Positions 2,831 to 63,887 of a stretch of 64,000 nucleotides of DNA are shown here, piece after piece. A program made the translations under genes and the position numbers. The stretch comes from a virus. Lineage: Duplodnaviria; Heunggongvirae; Uroviricota; Caudoviricetes. The stretch lies in the IMG/VR virus record IMGVR_UViG_3300012324_000010; one strand, given 5' to 3'. Positions within the stretch are counted from its first letter, which is position 1; every line of letters begins with the position of its first letter. A model generated the notes under the pieces. The model was not told where the DNA came from. It saw only the letters and a list, made by a program, of their open reading frames with translations, and made no database searches.

Positions 2831-3365
2831 GTTACTCACCAAAAAAGATATCCCCTCTGCGATCATTATCAGAGGGGATATCTTTGTGTGTAGTCCGCAG
2901 TTGTCGTTTTTGTTGATCAATCATAACCACTGTTGTCTACACTTCAAGATGAGTCAAGAGGTACTCACTAACGTATGCACAAAAACCCCAAGACCCACAC
3001 TGCGCATAACATTACAACTGTTGTCCCTGCATAAACTCTGGGTTAAAAACCAAAAAGTTGATCATTAAATAAGAACCAATCATCCCTGAAACTAAAGATT
3101 TTGGGGCTTTTTAGATGATTTTCTTGATAAACCTCAAGATTGAGTTGCTTAGTTGAGGTTTAATCTCACTTATAGGATAAGGATTTACTCCACAGACGGA
3201 TGCTAAATTGTCTACAAGGTGCATTGCTCATGCACTAACACGTACCTCTAGAAGGAGTTGCACCCTCACAAGCACCTTATAAGAGTGCTGTGTTAACCGT
3301 TACACCACAGAGTCTTAACTTCTACATGAAATCATTCTGGCAAATAATATGGTCTCATGTAGAGA

Positions 3366-3440
3366 GCGCCCCTGAGAGGATTCAAACCTCCAACCTTCCC
3401 TTTAGGAGAGGGGTGCTCCATCCCGTTGAGCTACGGGGGC
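3366..3440 (-). tRNA. tRNA-Arg (anticodon CCT, tentative)
   Basis: Cloverleaf on minus strand: acceptor gcccccg/cggggc, D-arm gctc..gagc, anticodon loop CTCCTAA, T-loop TTTGAAT; one acceptor mismatch. Confidence 0.75.
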
Positions 3441-3513
3441 TTGTATGACTAGATATCCACTGTGTCAACCACTATGGCTATCTAGTTGTTATGTGGAAGA
3501 TAATCACTTGCCA

Positions 3514-3589
3514 TGGTGCCCCCGGCAGGATTTGAACCCGCGACACATGGGGTAGAAACCCACTGCTCTATCCACTGAGCTACGGAGGC
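3514..3589 (-). tRNA. tRNA-Arg (anticodon TCT), CCA encoded
   Basis: Minus-strand cloverleaf gcctccgtagctcagtggatagagcagtgggtttctaccccatgtgtcgcgggttcaaatcctgccgggggcacca; anticodon loop TTTCTAC; GTTCAAATC T-loop; genomically encoded CCA. Confidence 0.85.
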
Positions 3590-8453: not shown

Positions 8454-9299
8454 ATGAAAGGAATAAAGGCAATGGCTCAGCCACTATCTTTTACTATCAT
8501 TTCTCAAGATGACACTTCTATCCTCTCTTTTGTAGATATGACTACAGGACAGTCTGGAAATCTTCCACAGTGGTCTAGTCTTGATGAGAAATCACAAAAC
8601 ACCATCATGGATATTATTAAAGATCCAGAAAGTGTAGATGGTGATGCTATCAAGGCTATCTATGATGCAGCAAGCAACTATAACTCCAATGCTATTCAAG
8701 AGATCCGACGTAAGCTAGGTATCAAGGTAGGTCTTGACAATATCTACATTGGTTCTATTGTTTTGCCTAAGACTTTCCAAAAGCTACTGGGAAATGTTGA
8801 AACACTAGAAGAAGCACAAAGCATTGTTGCTTTTGCTAAGGATCTAGAAAATAATCCTGGTGAGCACTGCAAGGAAGCACTCATTGAGTGGTTAGTAGCT
8901 AATCCTAGCTTGTCTTTCGCACCAGATGGTCGCATCATTGGCTACCGTGCAGTTGATGACAAGTTCCTTTCCTATCACAGTGGTTATGGCATTGTCAATG
9001 GAGAAGAGTTTTCTAACTCTAAGCTAGATAACACTCCTGGAAATGTTTTGCAGTTCCCTCGTTTTATGGTAGATCAAAATACTGATAAGCATTGTTCTAT
9101 TGGTCTCCATGTGGGTACATGGAAGTATGCTTCTACATTTGGACATCAAAAGCACATTTCTGTTGCTTTCAAGGCTTCTGATGTAGTCTCACCACCATCT
9201 GATGCTTATCAGGAGAAGATCCGAGTTTCTGAGTTTACCGTTCTAGAAGAAATCACTGAACCCTACCATGACACCATTGTTGTAGGTAAAACCTACTAA
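8454..9299 (+). CDS. hypothetical protein
   Basis: 281-aa ORF directly downstream of GHKL gene; alternative start at ATG 8472. Confidence 0.55.
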   Translation: MKGIKAMAQPLSFTIISQDDTSILSFVDMTTGQSGNLPQWSSLDEKSQNTIMDIIKDPESVDGDAIKAIYDAASNYNSNAIQEIRRKLGIKVGLDNIYIGSIVLPKTFQKLLGNVETLEEAQSIVAFAKDLENNPGEHCKEALIEWLVANPSLSFAPDGRIIGYRAVDDKFLSYHSGYGIVNGEEFSNSKLDNTPGNVLQFPRFMVDQNTDKHCSIGLHVGTWKYASTFGHQKHISVAFKASDVVSPPSDAYQEKIRVSEFTVLEEITEPYHDTIVVGKTY

Positions 9300-9343
9300 T
9301 AAATCAAGCACCATCACTTTTTTAAGAAAGGACACTTTATACT

Positions 9344-10192
9344 ATGTCTAAGATCATTACCATTTTTTCTAATCCTGGAACCTATAGCTCTACGCTTCCA
9401 TCTTCTTCAGTATCTGACAAGGTAGAAGATAACAAAACTCTTACTGCTTTGGGTCATACTGTCGATGAAAAGAACTTTGCTAAGTCTCGTCATGTAGCAT
9501 CTCTTTTCAATGCTATTTCCCGTGGACGCAACGTTCATACCACAGCACAGCGCATTGGTCTTGTTTCTGATCATCCTGGCAAGGGTGACAATGATATTGA
9601 ATATCTATCAGAAGCCATGAAGAATATCTATGGCATTCATGGTGATAATGCCATTCTGGGTAGCATTGAGGTAACAGATGCACAAATGGAATACCTAGAA
9701 TCTAATCCAGCAGCTATGGAGGTATTCATTGATAATGCAACCATTCAGGCTGATAATCTTTCCTGGGATAAGGAAGATGTAGAGCACCGTGAGTCTTTGT
9801 GTGAAGAAGTTCACTCTTTTGCCAATGATGTCAATGATCTCATTGAACTAGCATCTCATGCAGAATATGAAGATGATGACTGGGGCAATGAAGATGACTG
9901 GGACAATGAAGATGATTGGGATGATGAAGATGATTGGGGTGACTGGGGTGTTGAAGATGACTGGGATGATGAAGATGACTACGGTGTAGAAGAAGATGAT
10001 GAAGTTTCTAGTGCTGGGGTCAACTCACCCTCACAGATCAAGGATGATGAATATATCAGCATTGATGATCTCAGCCCACATGCACAGCTTGTAGTGCTAA
10101 CCCCAGAAGAACTAGAGAAGCTGAAAAAGCACCCACGTTTTGCAAATGCAGAACAGCTAGAGCTTTCCTTTGATGATGTAGATGATGAATAA
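9344..10192 (+). CDS. acidic hypothetical protein with tandem EDDW(D/G)N repeats
   Basis: 282-aa ORF, SD AAAGGA; approx. 9871-9990 is an 18-bp tandem repeat encoding DDWGNEDDWDNEDDWDDEDDWGDWGVEDDWDDEDDY. Confidence 0.6.
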   Translation: MSKIITIFSNPGTYSSTLPSSSVSDKVEDNKTLTALGHTVDEKNFAKSRHVASLFNAISRGRNVHTTAQRIGLVSDHPGKGDNDIEYLSEAMKNIYGIHGDNAILGSIEVTDAQMEYLESNPAAMEVFIDNATIQADNLSWDKEDVEHRESLCEEVHSFANDVNDLIELASHAEYEDDDWGNEDDWDNEDDWDDEDDWGDWGVEDDWDDEDDYGVEEDDEVSSAGVNSPSQIKDDEYISIDDLSPHAQLVVLTPEELEKLKKHPRFANAEQLELSFDDVDDE

Positions 10193-10209
10193 TCTTTCTG
10201 TATCTTAAA

Positions 10210-11640
10210 ATTTCACCAAAACCACAAGTCAGAGAAGCCCCGGAATCTTTAGCTCCGGGGAGTGAATGGCTTAAAACTTTCACCCCTCTGGTCCACTTTT
10301 GACAAAGAGGTGAAGAGTATGATATACTTATCCATATCGCCCACAAGACAAAGAAGGGAGGGTTGAAGACATGGAGATAACCTTAACTAGGAAGATTTTA
10401 ATTGAGCCTAGTGAGGAGCAGGAGATACTGCTCAAGAGTACAGCTCAAGCATATACAGATGCCTGTAACTACATCTCAGCGTTCTGTTTCAGAGAGCATA
10501 CAACTTCAAAGAAGAATATTCAGGAATCTTTGTATTATGATCTCAGAGAGCACTTTAACCTCCCTAGTCAGATGGCGATTTCTGCGATTCGTTCAGTGGT
10601 ATCCGCATATGCTACTGTTCACGCAACACAGAAAAGGTGGTCTGTACAACCTGCTTTTAAGAAGCAAAAGTACAATCTTACCTGGAACAGAGACTATTCT
10701 CTCAACAGAAAAACTGGTGATTTTAGCCTCAATACCCTAGATGGTAGGCAGCACATTAAAACCCAGTGGAAGGGACAAGAAAAGTATTCTAGCTTGGAGA
10801 AATACGGCACAGCCACCATTGCTTTTAAGCATGGAAAATGGTTTGCACATATACCCGTATCTATCACTGTGGACGAGTTGAGTCTTGATGATGTGGTAGA
10901 TATTATGGGAATTGACTTGGGTGTAAACTTTCTGGCGACTGCTTACAGCTCCACCACAGGAAAAACACAGTTCTTCAGTGGAAAGCACATCAAGCACAAG
11001 CGAGCACAGTATAATAATCTGCGTTCTGAGCTGCAAAGAAAAGGTACCCGATCTTCAAGAAAACGACTTAAGGCTATTGGTAATCGAGAAAACCGTTGGA
11101 TGAGTGATATCAATCACACCATCACTAAGGCACTCGTGAATACTACCAATCCCACCTTGTTTGTTTTGGAAGATTTAAGCGGTATCCGCTCAGCTACAGA
11201 AAAGGTTCGCACAAAAGATCGCTATGTGCAAGTATCATGGGCATTTTATGATTTCAGAAAGAAGCTAGAATATAAAGCTCAGCTACATGGGCATAAGGTT
11301 CTTATTGTAGATCCTCGGTACACTTCTCAAATGTGTCCTAAATGCGGTTATACACATAAGAAAAACCGCAATAAGAAAACACACACTTTCTGCTGCACAA
11401 AGTGTGGTTATTGTTCCAACGATGATAGAATAGCAGCAATGAATCTGTGTGCAAAGGGAATTCAGTACCGTGCACAGTTCGCTATGAGCAAAGCTCCTAG
11501 CGAAGGGGAAAGTCATCATCCCCACGATGTTCCGACAGCATCTTAGTATGTTAAAAAGGCAGGAGAGATAATCATTCTCGATTACTGCTGGTCAGGGACA
11601 AGCCCTGGAGTCTTTAGCTCTGGGGTAGATGACCCCTTGT
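10210..11640 (+). mobile_element. IS200/IS605-family insertion sequence carrying only tnpB (IS1341-like); boundaries approximate
   Basis: Left-end hairpin ccccggAATCTTTAGCTccgggg at 10238-10260 and near-identical right-end hairpin ccctggAGTCTTTAGCTctgggg at 11603-11625 flank a single TnpB ORF. No tnpA present. Confidence 0.8.
10371..11546 (+). CDS. tnpB: RNA-guided endonuclease TnpB (IS605 OrfB family transposase-associated protein)
   Basis: 391 aa; RuvC-I motif GIDLGVNF, RuvC-II LFVLEDL region, C-terminal zinc finger CPKCGYTHKKNRNKKTHTFCCTKCGYCSNDDRIAAMNL; typical length and architecture. Confidence 0.9.
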   Translation: MEITLTRKILIEPSEEQEILLKSTAQAYTDACNYISAFCFREHTTSKKNIQESLYYDLREHFNLPSQMAISAIRSVVSAYATVHATQKRWSVQPAFKKQKYNLTWNRDYSLNRKTGDFSLNTLDGRQHIKTQWKGQEKYSSLEKYGTATIAFKHGKWFAHIPVSITVDELSLDDVVDIMGIDLGVNFLATAYSSTTGKTQFFSGKHIKHKRAQYNNLRSELQRKGTRSSRKRLKAIGNRENRWMSDINHTITKALVNTTNPTLFVLEDLSGIRSATEKVRTKDRYVQVSWAFYDFRKKLEYKAQLHGHKVLIVDPRYTSQMCPKCGYTHKKNRNKKTHTFCCTKCGYCSNDDRIAAMNLCAKGIQYRAQFAMSKAPSEGESHHPHDVPTAS

Positions 11641-11668
11641 GTGTTATATATACAAGGGATATTTTTTG
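11633..11668 (+). terminator. hairpin plus T-run at IS right boundary
   Basis: ccccttgtgtgttatatatacaagggat then ATTTTTT. Confidence 0.5.
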
Positions 11669-11676
11669 AATCATTT

Positions 11677-11696
11677 ATTTTTTGTGTCCCTTTTTG
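11677..11696 (+). repeat. polar intergenic motif TTTTTTGTGTCCCTTTTT (copy 3)
   Basis: same family. Confidence 0.8.
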
Positions 11697-12106
11697 CCTA
11701 TCAAGATGACACTCTAAAATGTAAAAATAAATGACAACTAATAATGCCACTCGTTTTTTGCTAAGCTCTTCAAACGCTCAACAAAAGGAGTATAAGGTCT
11801 AGGCTCACGGGATTCCAATTCACCTAGTATGTCACTATCAACCACAGTAACGCTGTCTGCTATAGCTTTGTTTCTAGAACATTCTTGGCATTGTCTTATA
11901 TGTTCATCATGCTCATCCATCAATAATCACTTACCTTTCAAAATATCTTCATCAATAGCTTAGTTGCTACAAGATTAAGTTCCTGTTCTTTCATCTATAT
12001 TGATAGTAGATTTCAGTATAACATCAAAAGGATATGTAGTCATTTCATTGTTGATAGAATGATCCACATATCTTAAAAATCATCAAAAAGAAGAGGTAAG
12101 TTCTCT

Positions 12107-13900
12107 ATGGCAAGAAAAAAGACACGCAAATCACCCGCTAGGCGCTCACGTAAGCGTTCAACATCTTCTAAGAAGTCAACTACCCTCAATAGCTCACAAA
12201 AGTCCTTAAAACAGCGTCAGAAGGCTCCTTGGGATAGGTTGAAATTAGCAGGATATGACAATCCTATTATCTATCAATTCCCCTGGGAGGATAGGGCGTT
12301 ATCTAAAGTAGCACAAGCTGAATACTTTCCTGGTATTGGGTATGTATCTTTAAAAGAAAATCCTCTCTTTGAAGATTACAGGGTAAAAAACTACTCTTGG
12401 GAAAAATTCGTAGAAGATAAAACTAGCAATACAACATCTACTCCTTTCCTAGAGGGAGAAAGCCCTTATGTTTTAAGAGAAGATCAAAAAGAAGATGTTG
12501 CAACTATTATGCAAGCCTATAATGCTGGCTCTCCTGAATTCTTGATTGCTAATGCTACTGGTACGGGAAAAACAGTTACCACTCTTGCAGCATTAGATGA
12601 ACTTTCCCCTCACAGTGTTCTTATAGTGTGTCCTGCAGCAGTCATTCCTGTATGGAGAAGACATATTGAAGATATGGGTGATAAGGGAAGGAAATATGTT
12701 GTCATCAACTATGAATCCTTAAAGAAACTTGTGTCCCCTCCTGATGAAGCAGTTAAAGCTAAAAAGGCAGCAACTCAAAATAAACACATTTCTCTATCAG
12801 GAAAACCCTATACATATTTTGATGCAGTTGTTATTGATGAAGCGCACAAGACTAAAAACCCCACTGCACAACAATCACGCATATGCTCTATGATCTCTGC
12901 ACATGCACGCTTTACTCTAAGGCTAACAGCTACCCCTGGAAAAAATCCTTCACAGCTTCATTACTTATATAGACTTTTATCTTTTAATACTGGAGACAGC
13001 ATTGAAGTAAAAGATGATAAAGATTTCTCCCGCTATATTTCCTGGTGTAAAAAGCATCATGTTGATGGCATTGTCTCTGCTCCTTTTGGAAATGGTATTA
13101 CCTTTGAAGGCGGTAGCGATTCTGTAAGAGCTATGGAAAAAATACTCTATGGAAAAACTACCCACGGTGTTACAACAGCCATAAAGAAGAAACCACACAA
13201 TTGGGATAAAGTAATAAGACAACCCTACCCTATTGACATTTCTGCACAAGAAAAACAGGACTATCAACTTCTAGTGGAAGATGTAAAAAACATTATGCTC
13301 AATGCTGGAAAATCTAGAAGAATGGATATGTCTAAAGGTATTGCTGCAATGATGAAGATGCGTCAAAAAGCTGGTCTTTTAAAAGCATCACATATTGCTG
13401 ATTATGCACAGTATTGTGTTCAAGATCTAGGAGAACAAGTAGTCATATCTACTGTATTTCACAACACTGCAGAAGTTATTGAAGAAAAACTCCACTCCTT
13501 AAAAATTGATTGTGTGACAATCACAGGAAAAGACTCTGCTGAAGACAAAGAAGATAAAAGACTAGCCTTCCAACAAGGCAAGGTTCCTGTGGTGATTACC
13601 TCTATTACTACAGGTATTTCTTTACACAGTAATGAAGAATCAGTAGGAGGAAACTCTACTCCTCGCAGACTCATTGTAGGAGATATTCACTTTTCTCCTA
13701 TTGAACATACACAACTAGAGGGAAGGATCAACAGGAATGGAGAAAACGGGATTGTAGTCATTCCCATGCTTGCTGATACAGTAGATGAGAAAGTTGTATC
13801 TACTTTGCTTCATGGTGTAGAAACTCAATCTATTTTGCAATCAAATGGTGATGAAGATGATATTGCTTTTTTGGCTGATGCTTTAGGAGTTAAGCTATAG
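12107..13900 (+). CDS. SNF2/Rad54-family DEAH-box helicase with basic N-terminal tail
   Basis: 597 aa; motif I ANATGTGKT, motif II VIDEAHKTKN, motif III LTATPGKN, C-terminal motif VI QLEGRINRNGE; N-terminus is K/R/S-rich. Confidence 0.85.
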   Translation: MARKKTRKSPARRSRKRSTSSKKSTTLNSSQKSLKQRQKAPWDRLKLAGYDNPIIYQFPWEDRALSKVAQAEYFPGIGYVSLKENPLFEDYRVKNYSWEKFVEDKTSNTTSTPFLEGESPYVLREDQKEDVATIMQAYNAGSPEFLIANATGTGKTVTTLAALDELSPHSVLIVCPAAVIPVWRRHIEDMGDKGRKYVVINYESLKKLVSPPDEAVKAKKAATQNKHISLSGKPYTYFDAVVIDEAHKTKNPTAQQSRICSMISAHARFTLRLTATPGKNPSQLHYLYRLLSFNTGDSIEVKDDKDFSRYISWCKKHHVDGIVSAPFGNGITFEGGSDSVRAMEKILYGKTTHGVTTAIKKKPHNWDKVIRQPYPIDISAQEKQDYQLLVEDVKNIMLNAGKSRRMDMSKGIAAMMKMRQKAGLLKASHIADYAQYCVQDLGEQVVISTVFHNTAEVIEEKLHSLKIDCVTITGKDSAEDKEDKRLAFQQGKVPVVITSITTGISLHSNEESVGGNSTPRRLIVGDIHFSPIEHTQLEGRINRNGENGIVVIPMLADTVDEKVVSTLLHGVETQSILQSNGDEDDIAFLADALGVKL

Positions 13901-21192: not shown

Positions 21193-21233
21193 ATAAAACA
21201 CCACTGTTTTCCCTTGATACAGTGGTGTTTTTG
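21193..21233 (-). terminator. intrinsic terminator downstream of tRNA-Thr
   Basis: acaccactg...cagtggtgt hairpin with flanking A/T runs, abutting tRNA 3' end. Confidence 0.7.
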
Positions 21234-21306
21234 AGCCTTCTATCGGGATCGAACCGATGACCTACGCATTACAAGTGCGTTGCTCTACCATCTGAGCTAA
21301 GAAGGC
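21234..21306 (-). tRNA. tRNA-Thr (anticodon TGT)
   Basis: gccttcttagctcagatggtagagcaacgcacttgtaatgcgtaggtcatcggttcgatcccgatagaaggct; anticodon loop CTTGTAA. Confidence 0.85.
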
Positions 21307-51452: not shown

Positions 51453-51523
51453 TATTCCTACCTTGAAGATATAACTATAAAAGAAAAGACAGCACAAGGT
51501 GTTCTTGTACTGTCTTATTCCTG

Positions 51524-51597
51524 CGCTTCTGACGGGACTCGAACCCGCGACCCCTTGCGTGACAGGCAAGTGCGCTAACCGGCTGCGCCACAGAAGC
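51524..51597 (-). tRNA. tRNA-Asp (anticodon GTC)
   Basis: gcttctgtggcgcagccggttagcgcacttgcctgtcacgcaaggggtcgcgggttcgagtcccgtcagaagcg; anticodon loop CTGTCAC. Confidence 0.9.
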
Positions 51598-55076: not shown

Positions 55077-55171
55077 TGTATCTTCTTTTCTCTCCTTGAA
55101 ATAGTGGTGTGGATTTATCTTCTAATAATGATTATTGCATAGATAGTTTTGTTAGAGCAAATAAAAGAAAG

Positions 55172-55243
55172 CTCCCCCGGTAGGATTCGAACCTACATAT
55201 CACGCATTAACAGTGCGCTGCTTTACCAATCAGCCACGGAGGA
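55172..55243 (-). tRNA. tRNA-Asn (anticodon GTT)
   Basis: tcctccgtggctgattggtaaagcagcgcactgttaatgcgtgatatgtaggttcgaatcctaccgggggag; anticodon loop CTGTTAA; U1-A72 first pair. Confidence 0.8.
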
Positions 55244-63485: not shown

Positions 63486-63558
63486 GCCCCTATAGCTCAG
63501 TTGGTAGAGCAACGGACTCTTAATCCGTGGGTCGCAGGTTCGATCCCTGCTGGGGGCA
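63486..63558 (+). tRNA. tRNA-Lys (anticodon CTT)
   Basis: gcccctatagctcagttggtagagcaacggactcttaatccgtgggtcgcaggttcgatccctgctgggggca; anticodon loop CTCTTAA. Confidence 0.85.
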
Positions 63559-63708
63559 CATAGAGTCTTTACCCGTGGAAGGCTCTGAAAAACAAGGCAC
63601 TAGTGATTTGGGATTTATTTCCACCACCTCTTGTTGCTCACACGGAAAACAAAATAATGTACCCCCTCCCCAACTCCTGTGTGTTCTTGCGTGGAAGGGT
63701 GCATTTTA

Positions 63709-63782
63709 GCCCTGGTAGCTCAGCAGGATAGAGCAACCGTCTCCTAAACGGTAGGTCGAAGGTTCAAATCCTTTTCAGGGCG
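63709..63782 (+). tRNA. tRNA-Arg (anticodon CCT)
   Basis: gccctggtagctcagcaggatagagcaaccgtctcctaaacggtaggtcgaaggttcaaatccttttcagggcg; anticodon loop CTCCTAA. Confidence 0.85.
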
Positions 63783-63887
63783 CAGTTCCTATCTATCCCC
63801 ACAGAAACTTCTTATCTCTATTATTGTAAAAGAGAAGAAACTTCACAGGGGGTAAAGCTAATATTTGTTTTTGAAAAAGGAATCATC

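What the first reader, a model, noticed from the sequence alone, without database searches (positions are those of the whole stretch)
10210..11700. Intact IS1341-like element (tnpB only) with clearly paired LE/RE hairpins; candidate omega-RNA at the right end
The TnpB ORF (10371..11546) has its RuvC motifs and a C-terminal zinc finger. It is flanked by near-identical subterminal hairpins, ccccggAATCTTTAGCTccgggg (10238) and ccctggAGTCTTTAGCTctgggg (11603), each embedded in a longer block of similarity (agcccYggaRtctttagctcYgggg...gaWKRc). There is no tnpA.

By analogy with characterised IS200/IS605 TnpB systems, the 3' ~150 nt (11500-11640) should encode the omega/re-RNA scaffold, with its guide derived from flanking DNA just past the right end. 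The element sits in an intergenic gap between the acidic EDDW-repeat gene and the SNF2 helicase gene.

An intact, possibly active RNA-guided nuclease element is useful for mobility and genome-editing mining. It also helps define the element's TAM, the target-adjacent motif 5' of the left end.
Basis: partly seen in the sequence, partly recalled or inferred. Interest (0 to 1): 0.55.

Follow-up and report, generated by a model that had tools for sequence, protein, structure and literature searches.

The report
Phage TnpB element showing homing signature
This is an intact 1.4-kb mobile element in a giant phage that encodes only an RNA-guided nuclease (TnpB) and its guide RNA, and comparison with related phages suggests it spreads between them by cutting the empty site and copying itself in.

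Summary
Window 10217..11633 (1417 bp) is an intact, tnpA-less IS200/IS605 (IS1341-type) element in a ~230-310 kb jumbo phage.

What is there:
- It sits 3' of TTCAC (10212-10216), with no target duplication, between the stop codon of the acidic gene and that gene's terminator.
- Empty sites in three close phage relatives read ...TTCAC|CCCTTGTG..., which fixes the ends to within 1 nt.
- TnpB (10371..11546) keeps D182/E267/D352 and its zinc finger.
- The omega-RNA scaffold is 11474..11633. A covariance model built only from cellular relatives hits it at 88 bits (E=2.5e-28). Across the alignment 27 of 38 pairs covary. The guide should start at 11634.

- The element differs by 0.1-1% between phage genomes whose flanks differ by 6-11%.
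- Occupied and empty genomes are interspersed in flank comparisons.
- All occupied genomes share a flank haplotype next to the element.
- Two of three empty alleles carry TAM point mutations.

This is the pattern expected of RNA-guided homing between co-infecting phages. That step is inferred, not shown. The element is a new member of a known kind. The population signature is the interesting part.

The parts
10212..10216 (+). TAM / target pentanucleotide TTCAC. This is flank, not part of the element.
   Evidence: All 18 occupied loci read TTCAC|CAAAACC. At least 17 related elements in unrelated contexts have TTCAC or TTCAT 17-22 nt 5' of the LE hairpin. The empty sites read TTCAC/TTCGC/TTTAC|CCCTTG.
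10217..11633 (+). The whole IS1341-type element, 1417 bp. The ends are ambiguous by 1 nt either way because of a run of C at both junctions.
   Evidence: Comparison of empty and occupied sites. The family-wide RE terminus is ...GGGTAGTTGAC|, after which flanks diverge. There is no target-site duplication.
10238..10260 (+). LE subterminal hairpin CCCCGGAaT-CTTTA-GCTCCGGGG.
   Evidence: The stem sequence differs but the hairpin is kept in relatives L018, L019 and L025. A10245 is private to the window's allele.
10299..10328 (+). Sigma-70-like promoter inside the LE: TTGACA, 18 nt spacer, TGaTATACT. It would drive tnpB and the omega-RNA.
   Evidence: 11 of 12 matches with an extended -10 TG. The equivalent TTGAC..TATAAT is conserved in cellular relatives. 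Function is inferred.
10371..11546 (+). tnpB, 391 aa, preceded by the RBS GGGAGGG at 10356-10362.
   Evidence: Pfam OrfB_IS605 and Cas12f1-like_TNB. D182, E267, D352, C322, C325 and C345 are invariant across 32 homologues, and C342 is nearly so. These residues align to the catalytic motifs of solved Cas12f/TnpB chains.
11474..11633 (+). Omega-RNA (reRNA) scaffold. It overlaps the last 73 nt of tnpB and the RE.
   Evidence: Covariance model R1, built without any phage sequence, gives 88.3 bits, E=2.5e-28, a full-length match ending at 11633. 95% of cells are paired against 35-46% in slid controls, and 27 of 38 pairs have compensatory changes. The single-sequence fold has z=-4.6 and its centroid gives the same helices. 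Helices in the window:
- hairpin 11478-11504
- hairpin 11506-11524, whose loop GUCAUC (11512-11517) pairs with GAUGAC (11628-11633), forming a pseudoknot
- 11528-11536 with 11591-11600
- 11558-11562 with 11585-11589
- RE hairpin
11603..11625 (+). RE subterminal hairpin. It is also the last stem of the omega-RNA.
   Evidence: helix 8, where all 8 pairs covary.
11634..11649 (+). Predicted guide CCCTTGTGTGTTATAT. This is flank, and is the 5' arm of the terminator. The 16-nt length is assumed by analogy with ISDra2.
   Evidence: It lies immediately 3' of the RE terminus. It is unique in the window. Together with TTCAC it reconstitutes the empty site seen in L115-L118.
11634..11667 (+). Intrinsic terminator of the upstream acidic gene: stem-loop 11634-11658 and T-run 11662-11667. 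It now lies just after the element.
   Evidence: The same stop-spacer-terminator layout occurs at all empty sites.
10051..11800 (.). Low-divergence island shared by all occupied genomes: the element plus co-converted near flanks. The edges are approximate.

Best explanation
**Shown from sequence**
- 10217..11633 is an intact, autonomous-looking but transposase-less IS200/IS605-family (IS1341-type) element in a jumbo phage.
- It is inserted 3' of TTCAC, without target duplication, between the stop codon and the terminator of the acidic gene.
- It carries its own promoter.
- It encodes a TnpB with an intact RuvC triad and zinc finger.
- It carries a structured omega-RNA scaffold (11474..11633) that ends at the right terminus. 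The adjacent flank (11634 onward) would therefore serve as the guide.

**Inferred mechanism**
1. TnpB and the omega-RNA form a nuclease that recognises TTCAC followed by CCCTTGTGTGTTATAT. That sequence is exactly the unoccupied allele of this locus.
2. When an occupied and an empty phage co-infect one cell, the empty allele is cut.
3. The break is repaired by homologous recombination from the occupied genome. This copies in the element together with about 100-200 bp of flank. This is transposon 'non-restorative' homing.

Transposition to new sites would need a compatible TnpA supplied in trans. That is probably how the element first reached the phage.
For: **Identity**
- Pfam domains.
- Invariant D182/E267/D352 and zinc-finger cysteines.
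- About 3400 homologues. The closest cellular ones (50-55% identity) are IS605/IS1341 elements of Bacillota, including Geobacillus and Anoxybacillus.

**Ends**
- Family-wide RE terminus and TTCAY target.
- Precise empty sites in close relatives L114-L118.

**Omega-RNA**
- Covariation.
- An independent covariance-model hit of 88 bits.
- The window has its own compensatory swap, GUCAUC/GAUGAC, against the family's GUCAAC/GUUGAC.

**Homing**
1. The element shows 2-14 differences in 1417 nt, while flanks differ by 6-11%.
2. Occupied and empty genomes are interspersed. In 9344-9850 the window is 95% identical to empty L114 and L117 but 85-86% to occupied L001 and L108. Empty L115 is 95% identical to L001 and L108.
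3. In the 166 nt left of the element, all occupied genomes differ from each other by 0-13 positions but by 38-44 from empty L115 and L117. By 170-470 nt to the right the background haplogroups reappear.
4. All 18 occupied loci keep TTCAC. Two of three independent empty alleles have TAM point mutations (TTCGC, TTTAC), and two have guide-target mismatches.
5. There are about 136 TTCAC sites in this 64-kb window alone, which makes repeated independent insertion at this one site unlikely.

**Concept.** Homing by TnpB is described by Meers et al. (10.1101/2023.03.14.532601) and in the review PMC13565253.
Against: - No expression or cleavage data exist. The nuclease may be inactive for reasons that sequence does not show.
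- Ordinary phage-phage recombination, with selection or hitchhiking on the linked flank allele, could produce the same island without any cut.
- The TAM-mutation pattern rests on three empty alleles and is not statistically significant. About 0.75 changes would be expected at local divergence, and 2 were seen.
- Empty L115/L116 keeps an intact TAM and matches the guide at positions 1-12, yet is still empty.
- The few differences within tnpB are about as often non-synonymous as synonymous. Recent purifying selection on the protein is therefore not demonstrated.
- No TnpA source was identified.
Confidence: 0.7

Rival explanations
1. The element is a passive passenger. It is a real IS1341-type element but no longer acts. 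The element and its near flanks moved between phage lineages by ordinary homologous recombination during co-infection, and rose in frequency by drift or by hitchhiking with a favoured allele of the acidic gene's C-terminus or of the terminator region.
For: - Phage genomes in this group are visibly mosaic. Haplogroup relationships change between rIIB, the acidic gene and SNF2.
- The shared left flank 10051-10216 encodes the C-terminus of the acidic protein, which could itself be under selection.
- Substitutions within tnpB show no clear excess of synonymous changes.
Against: - The island is centred on the element. Divergence is at its minimum (0-1%) exactly within 10217..11633.
- Catalytic residues, zinc finger, promoter and every omega-RNA helix are intact, including a lineage-specific compensatory pair.
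- Occupied alleles outnumber empty ones among the contigs retrieved.
Confidence: 0.22
2. The element inserted independently, by a TnpA supplied in trans from a host IS605 element, at the same TTCAC in different phage lineages. There was no transfer between phages.
For: - LE and RE hairpins and the TTCAC/ATGAC cleavage motifs are intact, so mobilisation in trans is conceivable.
- Many cellular relatives carry an adjacent tnpA.
Against: - The window alone has 69+67 TTCAC sites, yet every one of 18 occupied loci uses the same one.
- Independent insertion would not carry a shared 166-nt left-flank haplotype.
- No cellular or other copy closer than 80% protein identity was found to serve as a source.
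Confidence: 0.03
3. The TnpB is domesticated and serves the phage. It might be a weapon that destroys competing, unoccupied phage genomes (marker exclusion without repair), or an RNA-guided regulator of the neighbouring genes.
For: - The element sits at a fixed site between conserved early-type genes (rIIA/rIIB-like, SNF2) in most genomes sampled.
- Its closest relatives (71-80% identity) are also on phage-like contigs, which suggests a phage-resident lineage.
Against: - The catalytic triad is intact, so this is not a TldR-type nuclease-dead repressor.
- The guide target is the element's own empty site, not a promoter.
- The locus is polymorphic for presence and absence, so it is dispensable.
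- Competitor killing and homing are not mutually exclusive.
Confidence: 0.05

Closest known systems
ISDra2 TnpB/omega-RNA of Deinococcus radiodurans (Karvelis et al. 2021, PMC8612924; structures 8EXA/8H1J, PMC10097598)
   Same: - RuvC D/E/D triad plus zinc-finger nuclease.
- The omega-RNA is encoded across the tnpB 3' end and the RE, with the guide taken from the flank 3' of the RE.
- A 5-nt TAM equals the transposon's target motif.
- The window's RNA shows a loop-to-3'-end pseudoknot. My recollection, not re-checked in the papers, is that the ISDra2 omega-RNA also has a pseudoknot.
   Different: - Only distant sequence similarity: E=1e-8 to 8EXA, and the best solved relatives are Cas12f and other TnpB chains.
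- The TAM is TTCAC, not TTGAT.
- There is no tnpA.
- The host is a phage.
- The omega-RNA matches no Rfam family.
Geobacillus stearothermophilus ISGst elements (Meers et al. 2023, 10.1101/2023.03.14.532601)
   Same: - The paper describes TnpB or IscB cutting the vacated donor site so that recombination restores the transposon.
- It reports TTCAT as a TAM and TTCAC as a transposon-end motif in that organism. The same motifs are used here.
- The closest cellular TnpB relatives of the window protein include Geobacillus, Parageobacillus and Anoxybacillus.
   Different: - Those elements have TnpA, and homing there restores a sister chromosome after excision.
- Here there is no TnpA, and the inferred recipient is a different, co-infecting phage genome.
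- Protein identity to the Geobacillus loci is about 50%.
IS1341 group of the IS200/IS605 family (tnpB only)
   Same: tnpB as the only ORF, subterminal hairpins instead of inverted repeats, no target duplication, and insertion 3' of a short specific motif.
   Different: - The reference IS1341 sequence itself was not available for comparison.
- Many TnpBs of the same clade sit next to a tnpA (IS605 type). 'IS1341-type' therefore describes the gene content, not a separate lineage.
Free-standing homing endonuclease genes of T4-like phages (SegF, SegB, Mob), summarised in PMC13565253
   Same: - An intergenic selfish nuclease gene between conserved phage genes.
- Presence/absence polymorphism among related phages.
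- Co-conversion of flanking markers.
- An island without sharp borders.
   Different: - The target is recognised by a guide RNA and a TAM rather than by protein.
- Self and non-self are distinguished by the insertion itself, which splits the TAM from the target, rather than by substitutions in a nearby gene.
TldR (nuclease-dead TnpB-like repressors)
   Same: A TnpB fold, found in some cases in prophages, with a guide RNA encoded downstream.
   Different: TldRs have lost the RuvC catalytic residues and the transposon ends. Here both are intact.

Membership tests
IS200/IS605 family, IS1341 (tnpB-only) group | Encodes a TnpB (OrfB_IS605) protein | tested here: met
   Pfam PF01385 at 2.3e-10 and PF07282 at 2.4e-21. 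About 3400 homologues.
IS200/IS605 family, IS1341 (tnpB-only) group | Subterminal imperfect palindromes at both ends, and no terminal inverted repeats | tested here: met
   Hairpins at 10238-10260 and 11603-11625, in direct orientation. They are conserved as hairpins in relatives.
IS200/IS605 family, IS1341 (tnpB-only) group | Insertion 3' of a short specific motif, with no target-site duplication | tested here: met
   The empty site reads TTCAC|CCCTTG and the occupied site TTCAC[element]CCCTTG. TTCAY lies 5' of the LE in at least 17 relatives.
IS200/IS605 family, IS1341 (tnpB-only) group | No tnpA in the element | tested here: met
   tnpB is the only long ORF in 10217..11633. tblastn with the TnpA of relatives finds nothing in the 64-kb window.
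IS200/IS605 family, IS1341 (tnpB-only) group | Single-strand 'peel and paste' transposition by a Y1 TnpA | not testable with these tools
   Needs an excision/insertion assay with a compatible TnpA.
TnpB/omega-RNA RNA-guided nuclease (OMEGA) | Intact RuvC D/E/D triad and C-terminal zinc finger | tested here: met
   D182, E267, D352, C322, C325 and C345 are invariant in 32 homologues, and C342 is nearly invariant. They align to GVDMG / EDLTGI / NADFNA of solved Cas12f.
TnpB/omega-RNA RNA-guided nuclease (OMEGA) | Conserved structured RNA that overlaps the tnpB 3' end and stops at the RE terminus | tested here: met
   A covariance model built from cellular relatives only gives 88.3 bits, E=2.5e-28, at 11474-11633.
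TnpB/omega-RNA RNA-guided nuclease (OMEGA) | The guide matches the empty or donor-joint site next to the TAM | tested here: met
   TTCAC followed by 11634 onward reconstitutes the natural empty allele. L117/L118 match 16 of 16 guide positions and L115/L116 match 14 of 16.
TnpB/omega-RNA RNA-guided nuclease (OMEGA) | Omega-RNA expression and TAM-dependent DNA cleavage | not testable with these tools
   Needs RNA-seq and cleavage assays.
Rfam-curated RNA families | A match to a described family | tested here: not met
   No hit at E<=1 in 9000-13000. This omega-RNA type is not represented in Rfam 15.
TldR (nuclease-dead TnpB-derived repressor) | Loss of the RuvC catalytic residues and of the transposon ends | tested here: not met
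   The triad and both ends are intact.
Homing element (transposon non-restorative homing) | Presence/absence polymorphism at one orthologous site among genomes able to recombine | tested here: met
   18 occupied loci against empty L114-L118, with 92-96% identical flanking genes.
Homing element (transposon non-restorative homing) | The element is much younger than its genomic backgrounds, and flanking markers are co-converted | tested here: met
   0.1-1% divergence in the element against 6-11% in flanks. Phylogenetic interspersion of occupied and empty genomes. A shared near-flank haplotype.
Homing element (transposon non-restorative homing) | Spread depends on cleavage of the empty allele by the encoded nuclease | not testable with these tools
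   Needs co-infection crosses with wild-type and catalytically dead TnpB.

The most novel reading that the evidence does not exclude
This TnpA-less TnpB/omega-RNA element behaves in nature as an RNA-guided gene drive among co-infecting jumbo phages. It has swept through diverged lineages of one phage species complex at a single locus, carrying about 100-200 bp of flank with it. The remaining empty alleles are enriched for drive-resistant variants, namely TAM point mutations (TTCGC, TTTAC) and guide-target mismatches. If so, homing rather than transposition would be the main way tnpB-only elements persist in viruses.
Probability: 0.5. Interest if true: 0.75.

Novelty: new member of a known kind. 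Interest (0 to 1): 0.55.

Why it matters
**As an object**, this is one more IS200/IS605 TnpB element, which is a very abundant kind. Its ends, TAM (TTCAC), guide and an omega-RNA scaffold with strong covariation support are now defined. That makes it a ready candidate for nuclease mining.

**The less ordinary point is the population pattern.** Homing of TnpB elements into homologous replicons has been shown experimentally for chromosomes and plasmids, and proposed for co-infecting phages (PMC13565253). Natural evidence is scarce. Here a transposase-less element is nearly identical across phage genomes whose flanks have diverged by 6-11%. It has a co-converted flank island and co-circulating empty alleles, some of which have mutated TAMs.

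This gives a concrete natural system in which to test two things:
- whether tnpB-only (IS1341-type) elements persist by RNA-guided homing;
- how resistance alleles arise.

It would also explain why such elements are common in phage genomes that lack any transposase.

Tried and rejected
- **Rfam scan of 9000-13000** at E<=1: no hit.
- **Phage GenBank collection.** Only about 100-nt matches to Lactobacillus phage transposase genes, and a tRNA match to phiKZ-like phages. The phage has no close relative there.
- **IMG/VR.** No relative of the TnpB, and only a 26%-identical SNF2.
- **Pattern scan of JGI metagenomes for the predicted empty junction.** It returned one chance match in a GC-rich bacterial contig (L026).
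- **Exact look-up of the window's own SNF2 protein.** All four contigs carry the element.
- **First empty sites found (L013, L014).** They were too divergent (77% and 68% nucleotide identity in rIIB) to fix the junction. Closer ones came from variants of the acidic protein.
- **Automatic LE detection through the RE arm.** It was noisy, with many false arms. Only loci with a recognisable LE hairpin were counted.
- **RNAalifold on the smaller alignment A5.** It chose the local hairpin rather than the long-range stem. Both are supported and together form a pseudoknot.
- **Rejected readings:**
  - TldR-type repressor, because the triad is intact.
  - Independent insertions, because one site among many TTCAC sites is used and the flank haplotype is shared.
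  - Chance similarity of LE and RE, because 0 of 100 shuffles reproduce it.
- **Not attempted:** structure prediction and fold search. Sequence evidence already places the protein.
Full report
**1. The observation**

The ORF 10371..11546 (+, 391 aa) exists. It matches Pfam OrfB_IS605 (2.3e-10) and Cas12f1-like_TNB (2.4e-21).

The degenerate 25-mer occurs exactly twice in the window, against 0 expected in 100 shuffles.

Each block contains a hairpin. In the RE the stem is 9 bp (11603-11611 with 11617-11625) with a CTTTA loop and three G.U pairs. The LE of every other copy has the same extended stem. The window's copy has a private A at 10245 that breaks one pair.

**2. Context**

The window belongs to an uncultured jumbo phage.
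- The identical TnpB protein is found on 22 contigs of up to 232 kb. A 99%-identical one is found on contigs of up to 311 kb. One source is a human-skin metagenome.
- The gene order is always the same: an rIIA-like HATPase gene, rIIB, the acidic EDDW-repeat gene, tnpB, then the SNF2 helicase gene.
- The window has 8 tRNA genes and no close relative among deposited phages.
- No Y1 transposase (TnpA) is detectable in the 64 kb.

**3. The protein**

In an alignment of 32 homologues, D182, E267 and D352 (the RuvC I/II/III residues) are invariant. So are C322, C325 and C345, and C342 is nearly invariant.

The same residues align with the catalytic GxDxG, ExL and (N/H)xD motifs of solved Cas12f and TnpB chains. 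The best match is 9nzq at 2.6e-24, and ISDra2 TnpB 8EXA scores 1e-8. The protein is therefore not a nuclease-dead TldR-type derivative.

The closest relatives (71-80% identity; P0002-P0004) are also on phage-like contigs that carry RecA and a fused gyrase. The closest cellular relatives reach only 50-55% identity. Nearly all are from Bacillota, including Geobacillus, Anoxybacillus, Lachnospiraceae and Catenibacterium. Many of those have a divergent tnpA next to them.

**4. The ends**

Across 73 related elements the right end is nearly always ...GGGTAGTTGAC, after which flanks are unrelated. The window has ...GGGGTAGATGAC, ending at 11633.

On the left, relatives with a recognisable LE hairpin have TTCAC or TTCAT 17-22 nt upstream of it. 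The window has TTCAC at 10212-10216, 21 nt before the hairpin.

This prediction was then confirmed by true empty sites. Three sets of contigs from close relatives have the acidic gene followed directly by its terminator and no tnpB. Their rIIB is 95-96% identical and their SNF2 93-94% identical to the window's. They are L114 on a 267-kb contig, L115/L116, and L117/L118.

| Locus | State | Junction |
|---|---|---|
| L115/L116 | empty | ...AAAACTTCAC\|CCCTTGTGTGTTGCAT... |
| L117/L118 | empty | ...AAAACTTCGC\|CCCTTGTGTGTTATAT... |
| L114 | empty | ...AAAACTTTAC\|CCCTTGTGCATTATGT... |
| 18 occupied loci | occupied | TTCAC\|CAAAACC...GATGAC\|CCCTTGTG... |

The element is therefore 10217..11633, 1417 bp. 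The ends are uncertain by 1 nt because of a run of C at both junctions. There is no target duplication. The element sits between the stop codon (10190-10192) and the intrinsic terminator (11634-11667) of the acidic gene.

**5. The omega-RNA**

The last 200 nt of 73 elements align well. RNAalifold predicts a multi-helix structure.

On the named structure, 95.2% of cells form standard pairs, against 35-46% when partners are slid by 1-3 columns. 27 of 38 pairs have changes on both sides, and 0 of 500 shuffles reach the observed values.

A local hairpin (window 11506-11524) is also supported. Its loop GUCAUC pairs with the 3'-terminal GAUGAC (11628-11633). Together they form a pseudoknot. This long-range helix is mostly invariant in the family (GUCAAC/GUUGAC), so its support comes from only two covarying pairs. 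One of these is the window's own A>U/U>A swap.

Frequent G.U pairs, such as 68 of 73 at one position, indicate that an RNA of the + strand is under selection, not merely a DNA hairpin.

A covariance model built only from 37 cellular relatives (no phage sequences) finds window 11474-11633 (+) at 88.3 bits, E=2.5e-28. The match is full length and ends exactly at the RE terminus. Nothing else credible is found in the window.

The window sequence folded alone gives the same helices in its centroid structure, with z=-4.6. Rfam has no family for it.

By position, the guide is the flank from 11634 (CCCTTGTGTGTTATAT...), which is the 5' arm of the terminator. A strong sigma-70-type promoter with an extended -10 lies inside the LE (10299-10328, 11 of 12 matches). 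Read-through from the acidic gene is also possible. Expression is inferred, not shown.

**6.

*Divergence.* Aligning the window with other occupied genomes shows that 10293..11641 has no mismatch in L001, L003, L005, L006 and L008, while flanks carry 3-30 differences per 100 nt. Over the whole element the differences are 2 to 14 in 1417 nt (0.1-1.0%), against 6-11% in 2.5-4 kb of flank.

*Interspersion.* Occupied and empty genomes are interspersed.
- In 9344-9850 the window (+) is 95% identical to empty L114 and L117, but 85-86% to occupied L001 and L108.
- Empty L115 is 95% identical to L001 and L108.
- The element is therefore much younger than the split of the backgrounds that carry it.

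*Co-conversion.* Next to the element the picture inverts.
- In 10051-10216 all occupied genomes differ from each other by 0-13 positions, but by 38-44 from empty L115 and L117.
- To the right the same trend holds for 11634-11800.
- By 11801-12100 the background haplogroups are back.
- This is a co-conversion island centred on the element.

*Why not independent insertion.* Independent insertion cannot explain the pattern. The window alone has 136 TTCAC sites, yet one site is used throughout, and it comes with a shared flank haplotype.

**7. Mechanism**

The encoded nuclease and guide are predicted to recognise TTCAC followed by CCCTTGTGTGTTATAT. That is the empty allele. In occupied genomes the insertion separates the TAM from the target by 1.4 kb, so they are immune.

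The simplest reading is that the element spreads between co-infecting phages by cleavage of the empty allele and recombinational repair. This is the process described for TnpB/IscB at vacated donor sites (10.1101/2023.03.14.532601). The review PMC13565253 extends it to homologous replicons, including co-infecting phages, and calls it non-restorative homing.

Two observations are consistent with resistance to such a drive:
- two of three independent empty alleles have TAM point mutations;
- two have guide-target mismatches, while all 18 occupied loci keep TTCAC.

With three alleles this is only suggestive. L115/L116 keeps an intact TAM and a 12-nt seed match and is still empty.

The main rival is ordinary recombination with hitchhiking on the linked flank. 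It cannot be excluded from sequence. The few tnpB substitutions do not show clear purifying selection.

**8. Classification and novelty**

All testable defining features of an IS200/IS605 IS1341-type element and of a TnpB/omega-RNA system are met. Activity, RNA expression and TnpA-dependent mobility are untestable here.

The element is a new member of a very common kind.

The additional finding is the natural signature of homing-like spread of a transposase-less TnpB element among jumbo phages, with candidate resistant alleles. I found no paper reporting this for phages. The idea itself is already in the literature.

Noticed in passing
window 5301, 8287, 11682, 17411, 19144, 49200, 52336, 57507, 59192 and 13 further sites: TTGTGTCCCTT (up to 1 mismatch) occurs 22 times, all on the + strand, against 1.6 expected. 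The three sites checked against genes (5301, 8287, 11682) lie in intergenic gaps ahead of the rIIA-like, rIIB and SNF2 genes, and 11682 follows the terminator. The core GTGTCCCTT is conserved at the same place in related phages (L013, L014, L114-L117). It is probably a phage-specific promoter motif.
   Followed up: partly
window 11738-11923 (-): A 61-aa ORF on the minus strand between the element and SNF2. It is called as a 60-aa gene in L005, L006, L109, L114 and L117. It is absent from the shorter intergenic gaps of the more distant phages L013 and L014. It is not part of the IS.
   Followed up: no
window 10279-10314: An inverted repeat, TTCACCCCTCT / AGAGGTGAA, brackets the -35 box of the tnpB promoter. 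Cellular relatives have an analogous TTCACTAA...TTAGTGAA palindrome around theirs. It may be an operator or an RNA/DNA structure that regulates tnpB.
   Followed up: no
window 10245: The window's allele (shared with L002, L004 and L007) has A where the LE of the other allele types examined (L001, L003, L005, L006, L008, L012, L108) has G. This breaks a stem pair of the LE hairpin. It could impair TnpA recognition without affecting TnpB or the omega-RNA.
   Followed up: partly
L014/L015 9121-10455 (-); L018 853-2100 (-) and 2661-3797 (+); P0034 on the 311-kb contig: Related phages carry further, different TnpB genes: a 444-aa one a few kb downstream in L014/L015, and two back-to-back in L018. 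The phage that holds P0001 has a second TnpB (P0034, 55% identity). TnpB-only elements seem recurrent in this phage group.
   Followed up: no
window 9860-10050: The acidic (E/D)DDW repeat tract varies strongly in length and sequence between otherwise similar phages, giving proteins of 264-296 aa.
   Followed up: no
window 3242-3589, 21233-21306, 51523-51597, 55171-55243, 63486-63783: Eight tRNA genes (Ile-TAT, Arg-CCT x2, Arg-TCT, Thr-TGT, Asp, Asn, Lys-CTT). The tRNA-Thr is 92% identical over 52 nt to that of phiKZ-like Pseudomonas phages.
   Followed up: no
L006 right junction (window 11642-11670 equivalent): Occupied genome L006 has the L114-type long-loop terminator (CCCTTGTGCATTATGTGATGTG...) immediately after the RE. 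The recombination breakpoint therefore lies within 8 nt of the element's end, and its omega-RNA would carry a different guide from position 9 on.
   Followed up: partly
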